Shown piece by piece: positions 8,578 through 54,946 of a stretch of 64,000 nucleotides of DNA (the first letter of the stretch is position 1; every line of letters starts with the position of its first letter). This stretch comes from Escherichia coli. Lineage in GTDB: Bacteria > Pseudomonadota > Gammaproteobacteria > Enterobacterales > Enterobacteriaceae. The position numbers and the translations under genes are program-made. The stretch lies in assembly GCF_041248615.1 (NCBI RefSeq), contig NZ_CP158426.1; one strand, written 5' to 3'. The notes under the pieces are model-generated. The model was not told the DNA's origin, ran no database searches, and saw only the letters and a program-made list of their open reading frames with translations.

Positions 8578-8671
8578 GTGGGTGTTGTGTTTAGGGGCGG
8601 GGTAAGACTACGGGTCAGGGCAAGATTACGAAAGCCCGGAGCCTGTCCATCATTCTGTGTAAATGCCTTTC

Positions 8672-8990
8672 TCAGAAGTGACCGTCAAGGCGGTCACCGA
8701 ACTCGATAATAAAGCGACTCTTCCCTATCCGCCAGTCCTGAAGTGGCATCGTCCATTTTTGCGACGCTGACTGGAAAGCCAGCCACACCACTTTTTTCAC
8801 CGACTCATCTGTCGGGAACACTTTCCGTTTCTTTATCGCATGTGTGATGATGCTATTCAGCGATTCGATTGCGTTAGTGGTGTAGATAACCTTGCGGATC
8901 GCCTCCGGGTACACGAAGAATGTGGCAACATTCGGCCAGTTTGCCCGCCAGCTGCGACTTATCTGCGGGTACCGTGCATCCCATTCCTTC
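8672..8990 (-). pseudogene. IS256-family (mutator-type) transposase, 3' fragment only
   Basis: Frame translates ...ANWPNVATFFVYPEAIRKVIYTTNAIESLNSIITHAIKKRKVFPTDESVKKVVWLAF..., the C-terminal hallmark of IS256-family transposases; no N-terminal portion present. Confidence 0.6.
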
Positions 8991-9001
8991 CCAGGGAAAG
9001 A

Positions 9002-10119
9002 TTACGAAAGCCCGCTCCCCGCAAGGACTGACGCCAGATAGTTTCTGTCCATGGCTGCTTTTCGCATCTTACGTCTTAACCCTGCCTTGAATACCTTATC
9101 ATTCGTCAAAATATTAATAGCGATGTGCCGTATCCCTGAAAATAATTCTGCTGCATTTCCTCTTCTTATTTTGCAGTCGTCTTCATTCATTACCACGTCC
9201 AGACGCCAGTGCAGCTTATTCTCCACGTGCCAGTGGTTTCGGATTGCTGTGGCGAACTTCTCTGCGGTTAAATCAGCAGAACTAATATAATATCTGACCG
9301 TCATTTCTGGCTCTTTCTTTTGTTCTGCTATTATTGACCGAAAGGAGACTGCCACGCATAATTTCTTCAGACCTTTCCATTCAAACGTGAAATCAATAAG
9401 TTCATCAGGGACATCGCAAACAATGTGAAGACGGATTTCTTCTCTGCCGTGACTCTTTTCACTCATTGCGTAACTGTCATGCTCTGGATTATTTAATTCT
9501 TTCAGCGGAAATTCTCGAAGGCTTTATTTAGCCGCCCCTGGTTTCCTTTTACAGCGAATAAATAATCACCTCCCTGTTTTTGTATCTTCTCTGCAATATC
9601 TTTCTGGCAACCCATCGCATCAGTTGTGATGATTTTTCCTTTAATATCCAGCATGTTAAGAAGTTCTGGGATAGCTGTAATTTCATTGGATTTCTCATCC
9701 GTCCTGATCTGTCCGATGACCAGACTGTGCATTGTTGAGAACGCACTAATGACATGAATCGCTCCCTTGCGGCGACTCTTGTCATAAGAATGCCGGAGTG
9801 TTTTTCCATCAATTGCGATGACGTCTTTATCATCTGAAGTATGGCAATCTCGCATCCAGTTAATAAAGCACTCGTGAAATTTTGCAGGACTGATACAGGA
9901 TACAACTCTGGCGATGGTATCGTGAACAGGAATACCATTTTCAAAATCACCGTATTGTTTTAAAAAATCGAGATGTGTTTCCCCAAAATCCTCTATATCT
10001 TCCCAACCTTCCGCACCCGAAATAACAGCACAAATAGTCAACAGTAGAATATCCGATAATTTATGTTCCACTTTCCAGGCTTGTCTGTAATCGGGGATAA
10101 TAGAAATATGCCCCATCAA
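9002..10119 (-). pseudogene. H-repeat-associated (ISAs1-family) transposase, split into two ORFs by a frame disruption
   Basis: ORFs 9502..10119 (205 aa) and 9002..9466 (154 aa) together match the N- and C-terminal halves of Rhs-associated H-rpt proteins ([40 protein letters not shown] ... [26 protein letters not shown]...[21 protein letters not shown]). Confidence 0.8.
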
Positions 10120-10354
10120 TTTTTTAAGTTCTATTTTGTTCTCCTTAATTATGTAAGGAGTATTTGATCATGTATAAGCAATAAAAAACAGCTTTAGGTA
10201 ATGAGGAATATCTCAATTTTTAAGCATAAAATGCGAATTGTTTAGTACAAAAAAGCAGCGTTACGTGATCTTTCCCTGCACTTCACCCTAACTTTAATTT
10301 AACTTCAAGAAGTATTAAGGCCTCAATAGCGAACTTAATACTTCTTAAAGAATA

Positions 10355-18872: not shown

Positions 18873-19373
18873 ATGAGCAAAAAATTTGAAGGCAGCGTCG
18901 CGCCTCGCGAGCGTATAAATATATCCTATGTCCCGAAGACGGACGGCCAGACGGCTGAAGTGGAGCTTCCGCTTAACATGCTCGTTGTCGGCGATACCGG
19001 AAATACGCAGGAGACATCCCCACTGGATGAACGTCAGGCAGTTTCCGTTAACAAGCACAATTTCGGTGCGGTGATGGCTGAAGCAGCCATTGGCCTCAAT
19101 TTTACCGTCCCCGCCACGCTGAAGGGAAGCACAACGGACGATGAACTGAATGTGGCGCTGAATATCAAGTCACTGGATGATTTTTCACCGGACAGCGTGG
19201 CCCGGCAGGTTCCGGAAGTTAATAAATTGCTGGAATTGCGTGAAGCACTGACTGCGCTGAAGGGGCCGATGGGCAACCTTCCGGCATTCCGTACCCAGCT
19301 CCAGGCATTGCTGGAAAATGAGGAGTCCCGCGAGCAGTTGCTCAAAGAAATCGGCCAAGTGAGTGGGAAATAA
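18873..19373 (+). CDS. tssB: T6SS contractile sheath small subunit TssB (VipA)
   Basis: 166-aa ORF MSKKFEGSVAPRERINISYVPKTDGQ... typical TssB. Confidence 0.9.
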   Translation: MSKKFEGSVAPRERINISYVPKTDGQTAEVELPLNMLVVGDTGNTQETSPLDERQAVSVNKHNFGAVMAEAAIGLNFTVPATLKGSTTDDELNVALNIKSLDDFSPDSVARQVPEVNKLLELREALTALKGPMGNLPAFRTQLQALLENEESREQLLKEIGQVSGK

Positions 19374-19632
19374 CCACCACTATTTCATTAAACAGGGTTA
19401 TCCAGACATGGCGGCACACAAAAATATCTCCGGGAAAAACCCCCTCTCTGACGAAGACATTTTGCAGGCGGTTTACCGGGTATGTTTCAGCCCGTCCGGT
19501 GAAATCAACCGGGATGGCGTGGATGCGCTGATTACAACACTGGATCGCCGTATCAGTGATCTATTGGATGAGATTATCCATTTTTGTGAGTTTCAGCAGA
19601 GCGCGTCGCACTGGCAGCGCGTACTTCACTGA
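19363..19632 (+). CDS. small ORF encoding a TssC N-terminal-like segment (possible remnant or accessory protein)
   Basis: 89-aa ORF; region DALITTLDRRISDLLDEIIHFCEFQQSASHWQRVL parallels TssC residues DSMIADIDERISRQMDVIIHAPAFQQVESFWRSL encoded just downstream. Expression unverified. Confidence 0.4.
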   Translation: MGNNHHYFIKQGYPDMAAHKNISGKNPLSDEDILQAVYRVCFSPSGEINRDGVDALITTLDRRISDLLDEIIHFCEFQQSASHWQRVLH

Positions 19633-19682
19633 TGGCGAAAAGCCGGTTTCAGAAACACAGCTAAAACAGAAGGATTTTCAGT

Positions 19683-21158
19683 ATGTCTTTACAGGAAGAG
19701 GAACTCGTTTCCAGTCATGCCGGGCAGCCTGAGCAGGCATCGTCGCTGCTTGATCAAATCATGGCACAGACCCGTATTCAGCCCGGTTCGGAAGGTTATG
19801 ACGTTGCCCGCCAGGGTGTGACAGCCTTTATTGCCAGCATCCTGCAATCCACTGCATCTGCCGAACCGGTCAATAAACTGGCCGTGGACAGCATGATTGC
19901 AGATATTGATGAACGCATCAGCCGCCAGATGGATGTCATCATCCATGCGCCTGCCTTTCAGCAGGTCGAGTCGTTCTGGCGCTCACTGAAAACCATGGTG
20001 GATCGCGTTGATTTCCGTGAAAACATCAAGGTCAACGTGCTTCATGTCACCAAGCAGGAACTTCTGGAAGACTTTGAGTTTGCGCCAGAAATTATTCAGT
20101 CCGGATTTTATAAGCACGTTTATTCGTCCGGTTTCGGACAGTTTGGCGGTGAACCCATCGCTGCCGTGCTGGGCGCTTATGAGTTCAAAAATACCGCGCC
20201 TGACATGAAACTGCTGCAATACGTCAGTGCCGTGGGCGCAATGGCGCACGCACCGTTCCTGTCCTCCGTTTCCCCGGAGTTTATGGGGCTGAACTCGTGG
20301 ACCGAACTGCCTAATATCAAAGATCTTTATGCCATCTTTGAAGGTCCGGCCTACACCAAATGGCGCGCCCTGCGAGACTCGGAAGATTCGCGCTATATAG
20401 GGCTTACGGCACCCCGCTTCCTGCTTCGCCAGCCTTATTCACCAACAGATAACCCTGTTAAGAACTTTAACTATCACGAAGATGTCAGCCGGAACCACGA
20501 AGATTATCTGTGGGGTAATACGGCCTGGATGCTGGCGTGCAATGTCGCAGACAGTTTTGCCAAATACCGCTGGTGTCCAAATATCATCGGTCCGCAAAGC
20601 GGCGGCGCAGTGAAAGATCTGCCGGTGCATCTGTTCGAAACGATGGGTCAGATTCAGGCCAAAATCCCAACCGAGGTGCTGGTCACCGATCGCCGCGAAT
20701 TTGAACTGGCTGAAGAGGGTTTTATCACCCTTACCATGCGTAAAGACTCTGATAATGCAGCCTTTTTCTCTGCAAACTCGGTACAAAAACCGAAGCACTT
20801 TCCGGGCAAAGACGCAGAAACCAACTATAAGTTGGGTACGCAGCTTCCTTATCTCTTCATCATCAATCGGTTAGCGCACTACATCAAGGTGTTGCAGCGT
20901 GAACAACTGGGGTCATGGAAAGAAAGGAGCGACTTAGAGAGGGAGCTTAATACCTGGATCCGTCAGTATGTTGCCGACCAGGAAAACCCGCCTGCGGACG
21001 TGCGCAGCCGCAAGCCTCTGCGTGCTGCCAGAGTTGAGGTTATGGATGTGGAAGGCGAACCCGGCTGGTACCAGGTCGCGCTGAGCGTGCGGCCCCATTT
21101 TAAATTTATGGGGGCAAACTTTGAGCTTTCCCTGGTTGGCCGGTTAGACAGGGAGTAA
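19683..21158 (+). CDS. tssC: T6SS contractile sheath large subunit TssC (VipB)
   Basis: 491-aa ORF with conserved TssC motifs and length. Confidence 0.92.
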   Translation: MSLQEEELVSSHAGQPEQASSLLDQIMAQTRIQPGSEGYDVARQGVTAFIASILQSTASAEPVNKLAVDSMIADIDERISRQMDVIIHAPAFQQVESFWRSLKTMVDRVDFRENIKVNVLHVTKQELLEDFEFAPEIIQSGFYKHVYSSGFGQFGGEPIAAVLGAYEFKNTAPDMKLLQYVSAVGAMAHAPFLSSVSPEFMGLNSWTELPNIKDLYAIFEGPAYTKWRALRDSEDSRYIGLTAPRFLLRQPYSPTDNPVKNFNYHEDVSRNHEDYLWGNTAWMLACNVADSFAKYRWCPNIIGPQSGGAVKDLPVHLFETMGQIQAKIPTEVLVTDRREFELAEEGFITLTMRKDSDNAAFFSANSVQKPKHFPGKDAETNYKLGTQLPYLFIINRLAHYIKVLQREQLGSWKERSDLERELNTWIRQYVADQENPPADVRSRKPLRAARVEVMDVEGEPGWYQVALSVRPHFKFMGANFELSLVGRLDRE

Positions 21159-49721: not shown

Positions 49722-49798
49722 TGGCGGAACGGACGGGACTCGAACCCGCGACCCCCTGCGTGACAGGCAGGTATTCTAACCGACTGAACTACCGCTCC
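49722..49798 (-). tRNA. aspU: tRNA-Asp (GUC), distal tRNA of rrn operon
   Basis: Identical 77-nt tRNA-Asp sequence on minus strand. Confidence 0.95.
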
Positions 49799-49850: not shown

Positions 49851-49970
49851 ATGCCTGGCAGTTCCCTACTCTCGCATGGGGAGACCCCACACTACCATCG
49901 GCGCTACGGCGTTTCACTTCTGAGTTCGGCATGGGGTCAGGTGGGACCACCGCGCTACGGCCGCCAGGCA
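49851..49970 (-). rRNA. rrfH: 5S ribosomal RNA
   Basis: Reverse complement matches E. coli 5S (TGCCTGGCGGCCGTAGCGCGGTGGTCCCACCTGACCCCATGCCGAACTCAG...GCCAGGCAT), 120 nt. Confidence 0.95.
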
Positions 49971-50062
49971 AATTCTGTTTCATCAGACCGCTTCTGCGTT
50001 CTGATTTAATCTGTATCAGGCTGAAAATCTTCTCTCATCCGCCAAAACACCTTCGGCGTTGT

Positions 50063-52967
<2,905 letters not shown>

Positions 52968-53141
52968 TCACAACCCGAAGATGTTTCACTTCAGAGTTGC
53001 GAAAATTTGAGAGACTCACGAACAACTTTCGTTGTTCAGTGTTTCAATTTTCAGCTTGATCCAGATTTTTAAAGAGCAAAACTTCGCAGTGAACCTTTGC
53101 AGGTACACTCTGAAGTATTTTTTATTTAATCACTACAGAGA

Positions 53142-53217
53142 TGGTGGAGCTATGCGGGATCGAACCGCAGACCTCCTGCGTGCAAAGCAGGCGCTCTCCC
53201 AGCTGAGCTATAGCCCC
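53142..53217 (-). tRNA. alaV: tRNA-Ala (UGC), rrn spacer tRNA
   Basis: Reverse complement GGGGCTATAGCTCAGCTGGGAGAGCGCCTGCTTTGCACGCAGGAGGTCTGCGGTTCGATCCCGCATAGCTCCACCA. Confidence 0.95.
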
Positions 53218-53259
53218 ATAACATGTAGTTAAAACCTCTTCAAATTTGCGGTGCAAATT

Positions 53260-53336
<77 letters not shown>

Positions 53337-53404
53337 GTAGAGGTTTTACTGCTCATTTTCATCAGACAATCTGTGTGAGCACTGCAAAGTACGCTTCTTT
53401 AAGG

Positions 53405-54946
<1,542 letters not shown>

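What the first reader, a model, noticed from the sequence alone, without database searches (positions are those of the whole stretch)
19363..19632. Small ORF between tssB and tssC encoding a duplicate of the TssC N-terminal motif
The 89-aa ORF, overlapping the tssB stop, contains DALITTLDRRISDLLDEIIHFCEFQQSASHWQRVL, which mirrors TssC residues DSMIADIDERISRQMDVIIHAPAFQQVESFWRSL encoded about 250 bp downstream (roughly half the positions identical in register). It could be a tandem-duplication remnant or a small sheath-interacting modulator; such a gene is not part of the canonical T6SS core set.
Basis: seen in the sequence. Interest (0 to 1): 0.6.

Follow-up and report, generated by a model that had tools for sequence, protein, structure and literature searches.

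The report
Leftover tssC fragment between sheath genes
The small gene between the two sheath genes of this E. coli type VI secretion island is a real but decaying leftover of an old partial copy of the large sheath gene; it is ordinary genome debris, although its downstream end now seems to belong to the control region of the real gene.

Summary
The window is an E. coli chromosome carrying the V. cholerae-like T6SS-2 island. Between tssB (18873-19373) and tssC (19683-21158) lies a 309-bp spacer with an ORF, best read as 74 aa from ATG 19408. RefSeq calls it a hypothetical protein (Z0263 in EDL933).

ORF residues 29-72 are homologous to TssC residues 59-102:
- BLASTP: 17/40 identical, E 2e-9.
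- Shuffles: z 13.
- hhalign: 97.7%, E 2e-12.

The fragment sits at the same place in related islands of Escherichia, Salmonella, Citrobacter, Atlantibacter and Yokenella. The next relatives (Rahnella, Buttiauxella, Yersinia and others) have spacers of about 20-45 bp and lack it. A single old partial duplication of the tssC 5' end is the simplest origin.

Within each present-day clade it evolves like non-coding DNA. dN/dS is about 1, against 0.05-0.1 for tssB and tssC, and substitutions show no codon periodicity. It has been broken independently at least four times while tssC stayed intact.

Two things complicate "pure junk". Comparisons between deep lineages show weak protein-level constraint in the past. 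The last ~100 nt before tssC are conserved at the nucleotide level.

Verdict: duplication relic. A modulator role is not supported. Interest is low.

The parts
18873..19373 (+). tssB (sheath small subunit, 166 aa)
   Evidence: ORF list. RefSeq annotation of an identical locus.
19363..19407 (+). Upstream extension of the ORF from GTG 19363, overlapping the tssB stop. Probably not translated as part of the ORF.
   Evidence: RefSeq starts at the ATG. The aligned start in other lineages is the ATG column, and the extension is closed or absent there.
19374..19682 (+). 309-bp tssB-tssC spacer. The close relatives without the fragment have only about 20-45 bp here.
   Evidence: Spacer lengths. Short-spacer relatives. 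Found in 2240 of 5426 complete E. coli genomes, and exactly 309 bp in all 59 sampled.
19408..19632 (+). 74-aa ORF (Z0263-type hypothetical protein), a relic of the tssC 5' end. A weak AGGG Shine-Dalgarno-like site lies about 10 nt upstream.
   Evidence: AF2 model: helix 15-26 plus helix 35-73, pLDDT 79.
19492..19623 (+). Demonstrably homologous core: ORF residues 29-72, matching TssC 59-102.
   Evidence: hhalign. BLASTP. Shuffles. Pfam, NCBIfam and PDB matches.
19638..19682 (+). Conserved leader immediately upstream of tssC (CAGAAAYAC...AAGGATTTTCAGT), with the AAGGA Shine-Dalgarno site. Its last ~20 nt match the ancestral short spacer.
   Evidence: 68-81% identity between deep lineages against ~55% for the rest of the spacer. 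Diversity pi 0.033 against a neutral proxy of ~0.18. Comparison with short-spacer relatives.
19683..21158 (+). tssC (sheath large subunit, 491 aa), the intact parent gene.
19857..19988 (+). Parent segment in tssC (residues 59-102) that the relic copies. It corresponds to the first ordered residues of VipB in the sheath structure 3J9G.

Best explanation
The ORF is what remains of an old partial duplication of the 5' end of tssC. The duplicated piece ran to at least codon ~102 and probably included the ribosome-binding leader and start codon. It arose once, in the ancestor of a sub-lineage of V. cholerae-like (i1, 'T6SS-2') islands now found in Escherichia, Salmonella, Citrobacter, Atlantibacter and Yokenella.

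The upstream copy lost about 29 codons and acquired a stop. It survives as a 66-74 codon frame that is co-transcribed with the tssB operon.

Today the peptide sequence is not under detectable purifying selection and the frame is dispensable. The 5' half drifts at the neutral rate. The 3' third, together with the ~45-nt leader, is conserved at the nucleotide level, most likely because it now belongs to the cis-acting region upstream of tssC.

Shown: the homology, the distribution, the rates and the knock-outs. Inferred: the tandem mechanism, the exact boundaries of the duplicated piece, co-transcription, and what the conserved 3' part does.

Position and distribution:
- The fragment is at the same place in E. 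coli, E. albertii, C. youngae, A. subterranea and Y. regensburgei.
- It is also there in Salmonella, C. portucalensis and several SRA contigs.
- It is absent from the next-closest islands, which have 20-45 nt spacers: Rahnella, Buttiauxella, Yersinia, Trabulsiella, Lonsdalea and others.

Origin:
- No full-length TssC is closer to the fragment than its own family among 1.84 billion representatives.
- Fragments match their own lineage's tssC no better than another lineage's, so there was one old event and no gene conversion.

Neutral evolution now:
- dN/dS within E. coli is 1.0-1.5. It is 0.72 for L004-L072 and 0.39 for L070-L071. tssB and tssC give 0.03-0.23.
- Shallow substitutions are spread evenly over codon positions.
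- Spacer identity is about equal to third-position identity of the flanking genes.
- In 11 loci of the 70-aa clade, pi for codons 2-20 is 0.164 with no periodicity, against 0.13-0.21 for flank third positions.

Independent knock-outs while tssC stays an intact 490-aa frame:
- C. youngae: TGA at codon 21.
- Yokenella: frameshift plus TAG.
- A Salmonella contig: TAG at codon 59.
- E. albertii type strain: start lost, indels, deletion.
- There are also truncated, read-through and in-frame-deleted forms.

Nucleotide-level conservation near tssC:
- pi falls to 0.050 for codons 56-70, with third positions at 0.078.
- It falls to 0.033 in the leader.

Transcription:
- A promoter swapped in upstream of tssB drives ClpV 'ten ORFs' downstream, so transcription reads through the spacer (PMC13141884).
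Against: - Deep comparisons are not fully neutral. E. coli differs from the other lineages at 50-68% of third positions but only 31-46% of first and second positions (Fisher p 0.001-0.03).
- Amino-acid identity between deep lineages (39-43%) sits at the 99.9th percentile of what 44% randomly placed nucleotide differences would give.
- The frame is open in all 59 sampled E. coli genomes and in 8 of 11 loci of the 70-aa clade.
- Homology of the N-terminal 28 residues, of the sequence upstream of the ATG, and of the sequence after the stop to tssC and its leader is only suggestive (z 0-2). The tandem mechanism and its boundaries therefore rest on parsimony.
- No promoter, terminator, Rfam family or conserved RNA fold explains the conserved 3' part.
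Confidence: 0.72

Rival explanations
1. Functional mini-TssC. The 74-aa helical peptide keeps the first helix of the TssC core, and perhaps a vestige of the ClpV-binding helix. It would bind TssB, a growing sheath end or ClpV, and so modulate sheath assembly or recycling.
For: - The frame is open in most lineages.
- Deep-lineage codon periodicity and excess amino-acid identity.
- Residues retained across lineages (LD.RI..L.D.IIH..FQQ..W) are the ones conserved in TssC.
- AF2 gives a moderately confident two-helix model.
- A Shine-Dalgarno-like purine run lies 9-11 nt before the ATG in three lineages.
Against: - dN/dS is about 1, with no codon periodicity, within every shallow clade.
- At least four independent knock-outs occurred in islands whose tssB and tssC remain under strong purifying selection.
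- Conservation of the C-terminal part includes third positions and continues into non-coding leader, so it looks like a DNA/RNA constraint rather than a protein one.
- The N-terminal similarity to the ClpV-binding helix is not significant.
- No paper in the searched library reports a function.
Confidence: 0.1
2. The act of translation or the RNA matters, not the peptide. The relic is kept as a translated spacer or 5' leader that sets tssC expression. It might prevent Rho-dependent polarity across 309 nt, carry an internal tssC promoter, or carry CsrA sites, uncoupling tssC from tssB.
For: - A gradient of nucleotide conservation rises toward tssC (pi 0.164 falling to 0.033).
- The frame is open but the sequence is free to vary within E. 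coli.
- Literature cited in PMC13141884 reports tssB and tssC as separate transcription units (Kim et al. 2022) and CsrA repression of tssC (Wang et al. 2017), with AGGA motifs upstream of tssC.
- Two GGA motifs flank the tssC start.
Against: - No sigma-70-like promoter or terminator was found in the spacer.
- RNA folding is no better than shuffles (z -0.7).
- The alignment fold is weak, and its one solid helix is invariant and so uninformative.
- The GGA-containing leader is ancestral and also present in short-spacer relatives, so it does not explain why the relic is kept.
- Early stops and frameshifts are tolerated in several species.
- PMC13141884 found the tssB operon to be polycistronic.
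Confidence: 0.13
3. The fragment is foreign: a piece of a tssC from a different T6SS left by recombination between islands, not a local duplication.
For: - The fragment is only ~55% identical in DNA to any tssC of this group.
- Its identity to distant TssC proteins (Halomonas-type 46%, Helicobacter 41-43%) is similar to its identity to its own TssC.
Against: - An exhaustive search of 1.84 billion representatives found no closer full-length TssC.
- The fragment shares 'IIH' and 'FQQ' with the TssC of its own group.
- The Atlantibacter copy starts MSL...ART like its own TssC, though this is weak (z 2.0).
- Same orientation, immediately upstream of the parent gene.
Confidence: 0.04
4. Chance similarity in a random ORF.
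For: None beyond the short length of the match.
Against: z 13 against shuffles, hhalign E 2e-12, and independent matches to Pfam, NCBIfam and PDB TssC/VipB entries.
Confidence: 0.01

Closest known systems
TssC / VipB, T6SS contractile sheath large subunit (Pfam PF05943 + PF18945; NCBIfam TIGR03355)
   Same: ORF residues 29-72 are homologous to TssC 59-102. That is the start of the VipB domain and the first ordered residues of VipB in the contracted sheath (3J9G chain B starts at the aligned N).
   Different: - Only 74 aa against 491.
- It covers VipB model positions 1-33 of 301 and has no C-terminal domain.
- It scores 19.7 bits against a cut-off of 271.5.
- It cannot form a sheath subunit.
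Truncated pseudogene or ORF relic left by partial tandem duplication of a neighbouring gene
   Same: - Adjacent to its parent, in the same orientation, and truncated.
- Evolves at about the neutral rate.
- Repeatedly disrupted in relatives.
- Restricted to one sub-lineage.
   Different: - The frame has stayed open unusually long, with synonymous sites saturated between lineages.
- Weak protein-level constraint in deep comparisons.
- The 3' part is conserved at the nucleotide level.
Z0263 / WP_000718848 / WP_000123970 / UniProt B8ZYV1, A0A037Y8N1: annotated hypothetical protein of the E. coli T6SS-2 (ACE) island
   Same: It is this gene. The exact sequences are on at least 1000 contigs each, and it is listed with T6SS genes in virulence-gene screens (PMC10657854).
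   Different: None of those annotations or papers says what it is. The link to tssC is not stated in anything I could search.
CsrA-regulated 5' leaders with GGA motifs at the Shine-Dalgarno site
   Same: The conserved leader before tssC has AAGGA 8 nt before the ATG and CAGGAAG in codons 4-5. CsrA repression of EHEC tssC is reported (cited in PMC13141884).
   Different: The motifs are ancestral and lie outside the relic ORF. CsrA binding was not tested here.

Membership tests
TssC/VipB sheath large subunit | Significant sequence homology to the family | tested here: met
   BLASTP E 2e-9. hhalign 97.7%, E 2e-12. Pfam PF05943 i-E 0.0025. TIGR03355 E 3e-4.
TssC/VipB sheath large subunit | Full-length architecture (~490 aa; VipB plus VipB_2 domains) reaching the curated family score | tested here: not met
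   74 aa. Covers model positions 1-33 of 301. 19.7 bits against the curated 271.5.
Duplication relic / pseudogene-like ORF | Truncated copy of an adjacent intact parent gene | tested here: met
   Core corresponds to TssC 59-102, directly upstream of tssC on the same strand.
Duplication relic / pseudogene-like ORF | Relaxed selection (dN/dS near 1, no codon periodicity, rate near neutral) | tested here: met
   Shallow clades: omega 1.0-1.5, 0.72 and 0.39, against 0.03-0.23 for the flanks. Substitutions even across codon positions. pi 0.164 in codons 2-20 against a neutral proxy of 0.13-0.21. Caveat: deep pairs show weak constraint.
Duplication relic / pseudogene-like ORF | Independent disruptions in relatives whose parent gene stays intact | tested here: met
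   L003, L005, L085 and L017 are broken by different lesions. tssC is a 490-aa open frame in L003, L005 and L085.
Duplication relic / pseudogene-like ORF | Tandem origin: duplicated leader and start codon, recognisable junction | tested here: inconclusive
   Leader, N-terminus and post-stop similarities have z 0-2.7. Suggestive MSL...ART and Q(K/E)EE matches only.
T6SS accessory (Tag-type) small protein | Conserved with the system and under purifying selection | tested here: not met
   Present only in one sub-lineage. Omega about 1 recently. Dispensable in four lineages.
T6SS accessory (Tag-type) small protein | Expressed peptide with an interaction partner or a phenotype | not testable with these tools
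   No proteomic or ribosome-profiling data available here. No functional report found.
Structured regulatory RNA / known RNA family | Rfam match or conserved, covarying secondary structure | tested here: not met
   No Rfam hit at E <= 1. Fold z -0.73. Consensus fold -16 kcal/mol over 351 columns with little covariation.
Internal promoter or terminator between tssB and tssC | Sigma-70-type hexamers or an intrinsic terminator inside 19374-19682 | tested here: not met
   Consensus scan finds none in the spacer. Other promoter types are not covered by the scan.

The most novel reading that the evidence does not exclude
The relic is a domesticated mini-TssC. It would be a ~70-aa two-helix peptide, made from the same operon, that mimics the N-terminal helix of the sheath large subunit. 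It would cap or poison TssB/TssC assembly, or act as a ClpV decoy, giving T6SS-2-type islands a built-in brake. It would be under only intermittent selection, which would explain old constraint, recent drift and repeated loss.
Probability: 0.08. Interest if true: 0.6.

Novelty: new member of a known kind. Interest (0 to 1): 0.25.

Why it matters
Mostly housekeeping, with three practical consequences.

- **Annotation.** It gives an identity (tssC 5' duplication relic) to a 'hypothetical protein' annotated in thousands of E. coli, Shigella, Salmonella and Citrobacter genomes. Virulence-gene screens count that protein as a T6SS gene (Z0263).
- **EHEC T6SS-2 regulation.** It moves tssC about 300 nt from tssB in this island family. 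The ~100 nt before tssC are more conserved than synonymous sites. That bears on the unresolved question of whether tssC has its own promoter or post-transcriptional control in EHEC.
- **Lineage marker.** The presence of the relic marks one sub-lineage of i1 T6SS islands.

If the minority reading were true, it would be a new kind of built-in sheath regulator.

Tried and rejected
- **Closer donor TssC.** An exhaustive phmmer search of 1.84 billion representatives found none. The extra hits were WD40-repeat proteins matching 'VYRVCFSPDGK', which is spurious.
- **N-terminal 28-33 residues, including a possible ClpV-binding-helix vestige 'LSDEDILQAV' against 'SLLDQIMAQT'.** Not significant (z -0.2 to 2.0).
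- **Sequence upstream of the ORF ATG against the tssC leader.** Not significant. One E. coli match (GTTATCCAGACATGGCGG against tssC codons 9-13, z 2.6) is absent in other lineages and was set aside.
- **Sequence after the ORF stop against tssC codons 96-125.** Not significant.
- **Gene conversion from tssC as a neutral cause of the deep codon periodicity.** No own-lineage matching was found.
- **RNA element.** No Rfam hit, fold z -0.7, weak alignment fold.
- **Promoter and terminator scan.** Nothing inside the spacer.
- **AF2 model plus Foldseek against the PDB.** Only generic helical hairpins, E > 1.
- **Literature.** No paper for 'truncated tssC'. 'Z0263' appears once, in a gene list. Kim et al. 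2022 (J Microbiol 60:928) is not held in the library.
- **Frameshifted E. coli protein variants.** These are singletons at homopolymer runs. I treated them as probable assembly errors and did not count them as knock-outs.

Full report
**Where we are.** The window is E. coli chromosome. The 2.6 kb around the finding is 100% identical to several complete genomes and is present in 2278 of 5426. RefSeq annotation of an identical locus shows a type VI secretion island inserted after yafV. On one side it reads Rhs, VgrG, Hcp. On the other it reads tssB, 'hypothetical protein', tssC, tssE, tssF, tssG, tagH, tssJ, tssK, tssL, tssH, vasI, tssA, tssM, VasL. This is the V. cholerae-like gene order that E. 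coli workers call T6SS-2 (PMC13141884, PMC7216683).

**The observation.**
- tssB is 18873-19373 and tssC is 19683-21158. The 309 bp between them carry one ORF.
- The longest form starts at GTG 19363, inside the tssB stop region, and gives 89 aa.
- RefSeq uses ATG 19408 and gives 74 aa. That ATG is the start that aligns with the ORF in other genera, so I treat 19408-19632 as the ORF.
- Its similarity to TssC is not chance. BLASTP gives 17/40 identities without gaps, E 2e-9. The local score is 84 against 28 +/- 4 for 5000 shuffles.
- A profile of seven ORF homologues aligns to a profile of 14 TssC N-termini with 97.7% probability, E 2e-12, ORF 29-72 against TssC 59-102.
- Pfam VipB (model positions 1-33), NCBIfam TIGR03355 and solved VipB/TssC chains also match the same stretch.
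- The resolved VipB chain in 3J9G begins exactly at the aligned asparagine. The copy therefore corresponds to the first ordered residues of the sheath subunit.

**Distribution.**
- Within E. coli, the spacer is present in 2240 genomes. It is exactly 309 bp and carries an annotated hypothetical protein in all 59 records sampled across the ranking.
- The spacer is more diverged than its surroundings. 1288 records fall in the 90-95% band for the spacer, against 4 for the whole 2.6 kb.
- A scan of one genome per species with TssC returned 68 loci. The fragment lies between tssB and tssC in E. coli-like, E. albertii, Citrobacter youngae, Atlantibacter subterranea and Yokenella regensburgei loci (TssC 87-96% identical).
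- It is absent from the next tier (Rahnella, Buttiauxella, Lonsdalea, Yersinia nurmii, Trabulsiella, Enterobacillus; TssC 74-81%). There the spacer is about 20-45 nt and looks like the last 20 nt of the E. coli spacer.
- Protein searches added Salmonella enterica, Citrobacter portucalensis, E. marmotae, Shigella sonnei and several unassigned SRA contigs, always in the same position.
- There are three deep forms: a 74-aa Escherichia form, a 70-aa Salmonella/Citrobacter/Atlantibacter form, and a 66- or 105-aa form on SRA contigs.

**Origin.**
- No full-length TssC in 1.84 billion cluster representatives is closer to the fragment than its own small family.
- The fragment is ~50-57% identical in DNA to the tssC core of every lineage.
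- At sites where the tssC genes of two lineages differ, a fragment matches its own lineage no more often than the other (15 against 17, 12 against 14, 10 against 11).
- This argues for a single event before the lineages split. It argues against later gene conversion or independent duplications.
- Being truncated, co-oriented and immediately upstream of the parent, a partial tandem duplication is the simplest origin.
- I could not prove the boundaries. The N-terminal 28-33 residues, the 30 nt before the ATG and the 36 nt after the stop resemble the tssC start, leader and codons ~110-115 only weakly (z 0 to 2.7). There are two suggestive details. The Atlantibacter ORF starts MSLRKD..TARTDD against its TssC MSLQEEELISARTEQ. 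One SRA form starts MCTQKEEAGVS against MSLHEEELVS.

**Is it a gene now?**
- Within E. coli the ORF has 11-15 non-synonymous and 3 synonymous differences between the main alleles (dN/dS 1.0-1.5). tssB and tssC give 0.05-0.23.
- The other two shallow pairs give 0.72 and 0.39, against 0.07-0.09.
- Counted by codon position, shallow differences are flat or reversed. E. coli shows 6/10/2. The 70-aa clade is roughly even. L070-L071 shows 15/13/17.
- Overall spacer identity tracks third-position identity of the flanking genes at every depth.
- With 11 loci of the 70-aa clade, diversity in codons 2-20 is 0.164 (0.185/0.165/0.142 by position). Third positions of tssB and tssC give 0.13-0.21, so this part is neutral.
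- The frame is broken by different lesions in four places:
  - C. youngae: TGA at codon 21.
  - Yokenella: +1 frameshift and a TAG.
  - A Salmonella contig: TAG at codon 59.
  - The E. albertii type strain: ATG lost, indels, 24-bp deletion.
- Where the contig covers the whole gene (C. youngae, Yokenella, the Salmonella contig), tssC remains an intact 490-aa frame.
- Other copies are truncated (66 aa), read through into tssC (105 aa), or carry in-frame deletions (68 and 58 aa).
- The peptide is therefore dispensable and is not being conserved as a protein in present-day clades.

**What does not fit pure junk.**
- First, between the deep lineages synonymous sites of tssB and tssC are saturated (dS 1.4 or more), yet the ORFs still align. 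Differences fall on 50-68% of third positions but 31-46% of first and second positions. This uses a nucleotide alignment. Fisher p is 0.001-0.03 for E. coli against the others, and weaker but in the same direction for the other pair.
- Placing 44% nucleotide differences at random gives 28% amino-acid identity, with a 99.9th percentile of 39%. The observed value is 39-43%.
- So the copy was probably translated and weakly constrained for part of its history.
- Second, conservation rises toward tssC. pi falls from 0.164 to 0.125, 0.095 and 0.050 along the ORF, and to 0.033 in the 48-nt leader. Third positions also drop, to 0.078.
- That is a nucleotide-level constraint. It probably explains why the TssC-like motif, which lies in the 3' half, looks so well kept within clades.
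- I found no sigma-70-like promoter, terminator, Rfam family or convincing conserved fold there.
- The literature is suggestive but indirect. Kim et al. 2022 are cited as finding tssB and tssC in different transcription units. Wang et al. 2017 are cited as finding CsrA repression of tssC. PMC13141884 found the tssB operon to be polycistronic through to ClpV, 'ten ORFs' away, a count that includes this ORF.

**Structure.** AF2 on the seven-sequence alignment gives pLDDT 79, with a short helix at 15-26 and a long helix at 35-73. Foldseek against the PDB finds only generic helical hairpins, E > 1. This neither supports nor excludes an interaction role.

**Comparison with what is known.**
- The ORF works like nothing in particular. 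It is homologous to TssC but fails membership of that family on length, domain content and family score.
- It fits the ordinary category of a truncated duplicate of a neighbouring gene.
- It is already in the databases as a hypothetical protein: WP_000718848, WP_000123970, UniProt B8ZYV1 and A0A037Y8N1, and Z0263 in EDL933. JGI calls it 'predicted component of type VI protein secretion system'.
- In the searchable library nobody has said what it is.

**Verdict.**
- The 'duplication remnant' reading is supported, at about 0.7.
- 'The spacer or leader matters for tssC expression rather than the peptide' is about 0.13.
- 'Functional mini-TssC' is about 0.1.
- 'Foreign origin' is about 0.04.
- Interest is low. 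A specialist would find it a tidy annotation fix and a small lead on tssC regulation, not a surprise.

Noticed in passing
L074 3699-3701 (E. coli O157:H7 strain 2149, NZ_CP017436.1); not in the window: tssC of this O157:H7 genome carries an in-frame TAG at codon 464 (GWY*VALS). RefSeq annotates a 463-aa TssC lacking the last 28 residues. The window's own tssC is intact. If this is general in O157:H7, it bears on whether that T6SS-2 can build a sheath.
   Followed up: partly
window 38319-38801 (+): A second hcp copy downstream of the VasL gene has an internal stop at codon 99. RefSeq marks the equivalent gene as a pseudogene with an internal stop.
   Followed up: partly
window 19638-19700 (+): The leader and first codons of tssC (CAGAAAYAC..AAGGATTTTCAGTATGTCTTTACAGGAAGAG) are almost invariant across lineages whose synonymous sites are saturated. 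They carry two GGA motifs, one in the Shine-Dalgarno site and one in codons 4-5, the arrangement typical of CsrA targets. The same motifs occur in short-spacer relatives.
   Followed up: partly
window 19560-19637 (+): The 3' third of the relic ORF is conserved at third codon positions too (pi 0.05, against about 0.18 for neutral sites, in the 70-aa clade). No promoter, terminator or RNA fold was found to account for it.
   Followed up: partly
window 49853-54946 (-) and 41502-41575 (-): A complete rRNA operon lies here: 5S, 23S, two spacer tRNAs, 16S, plus a StyR-44 match in the spacer. A tRNA at 41502-41575 scores the same as one at 49725-49798 next to the operon. That tRNA lies just beyond the T6SS island and may be its insertion site.
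   Followed up: no
window about 8670-10130 (-); from L001 10073-11535: Two transposase pseudogenes (a partial transposase and a frameshifted ISAs1-family gene) lie between yafV and the Rhs end of the island in the identical RefSeq locus.
   Followed up: no
ORF residues 21-31 (window 19468-19500): 'AVYRVCFSPSG' draws spurious multi-stretch hits to WD40-repeat proteins ('VYRVCFSPDGK') in the exhaustive protein search. This is a coincidence to ignore in automated annotation.
   Followed up: yes
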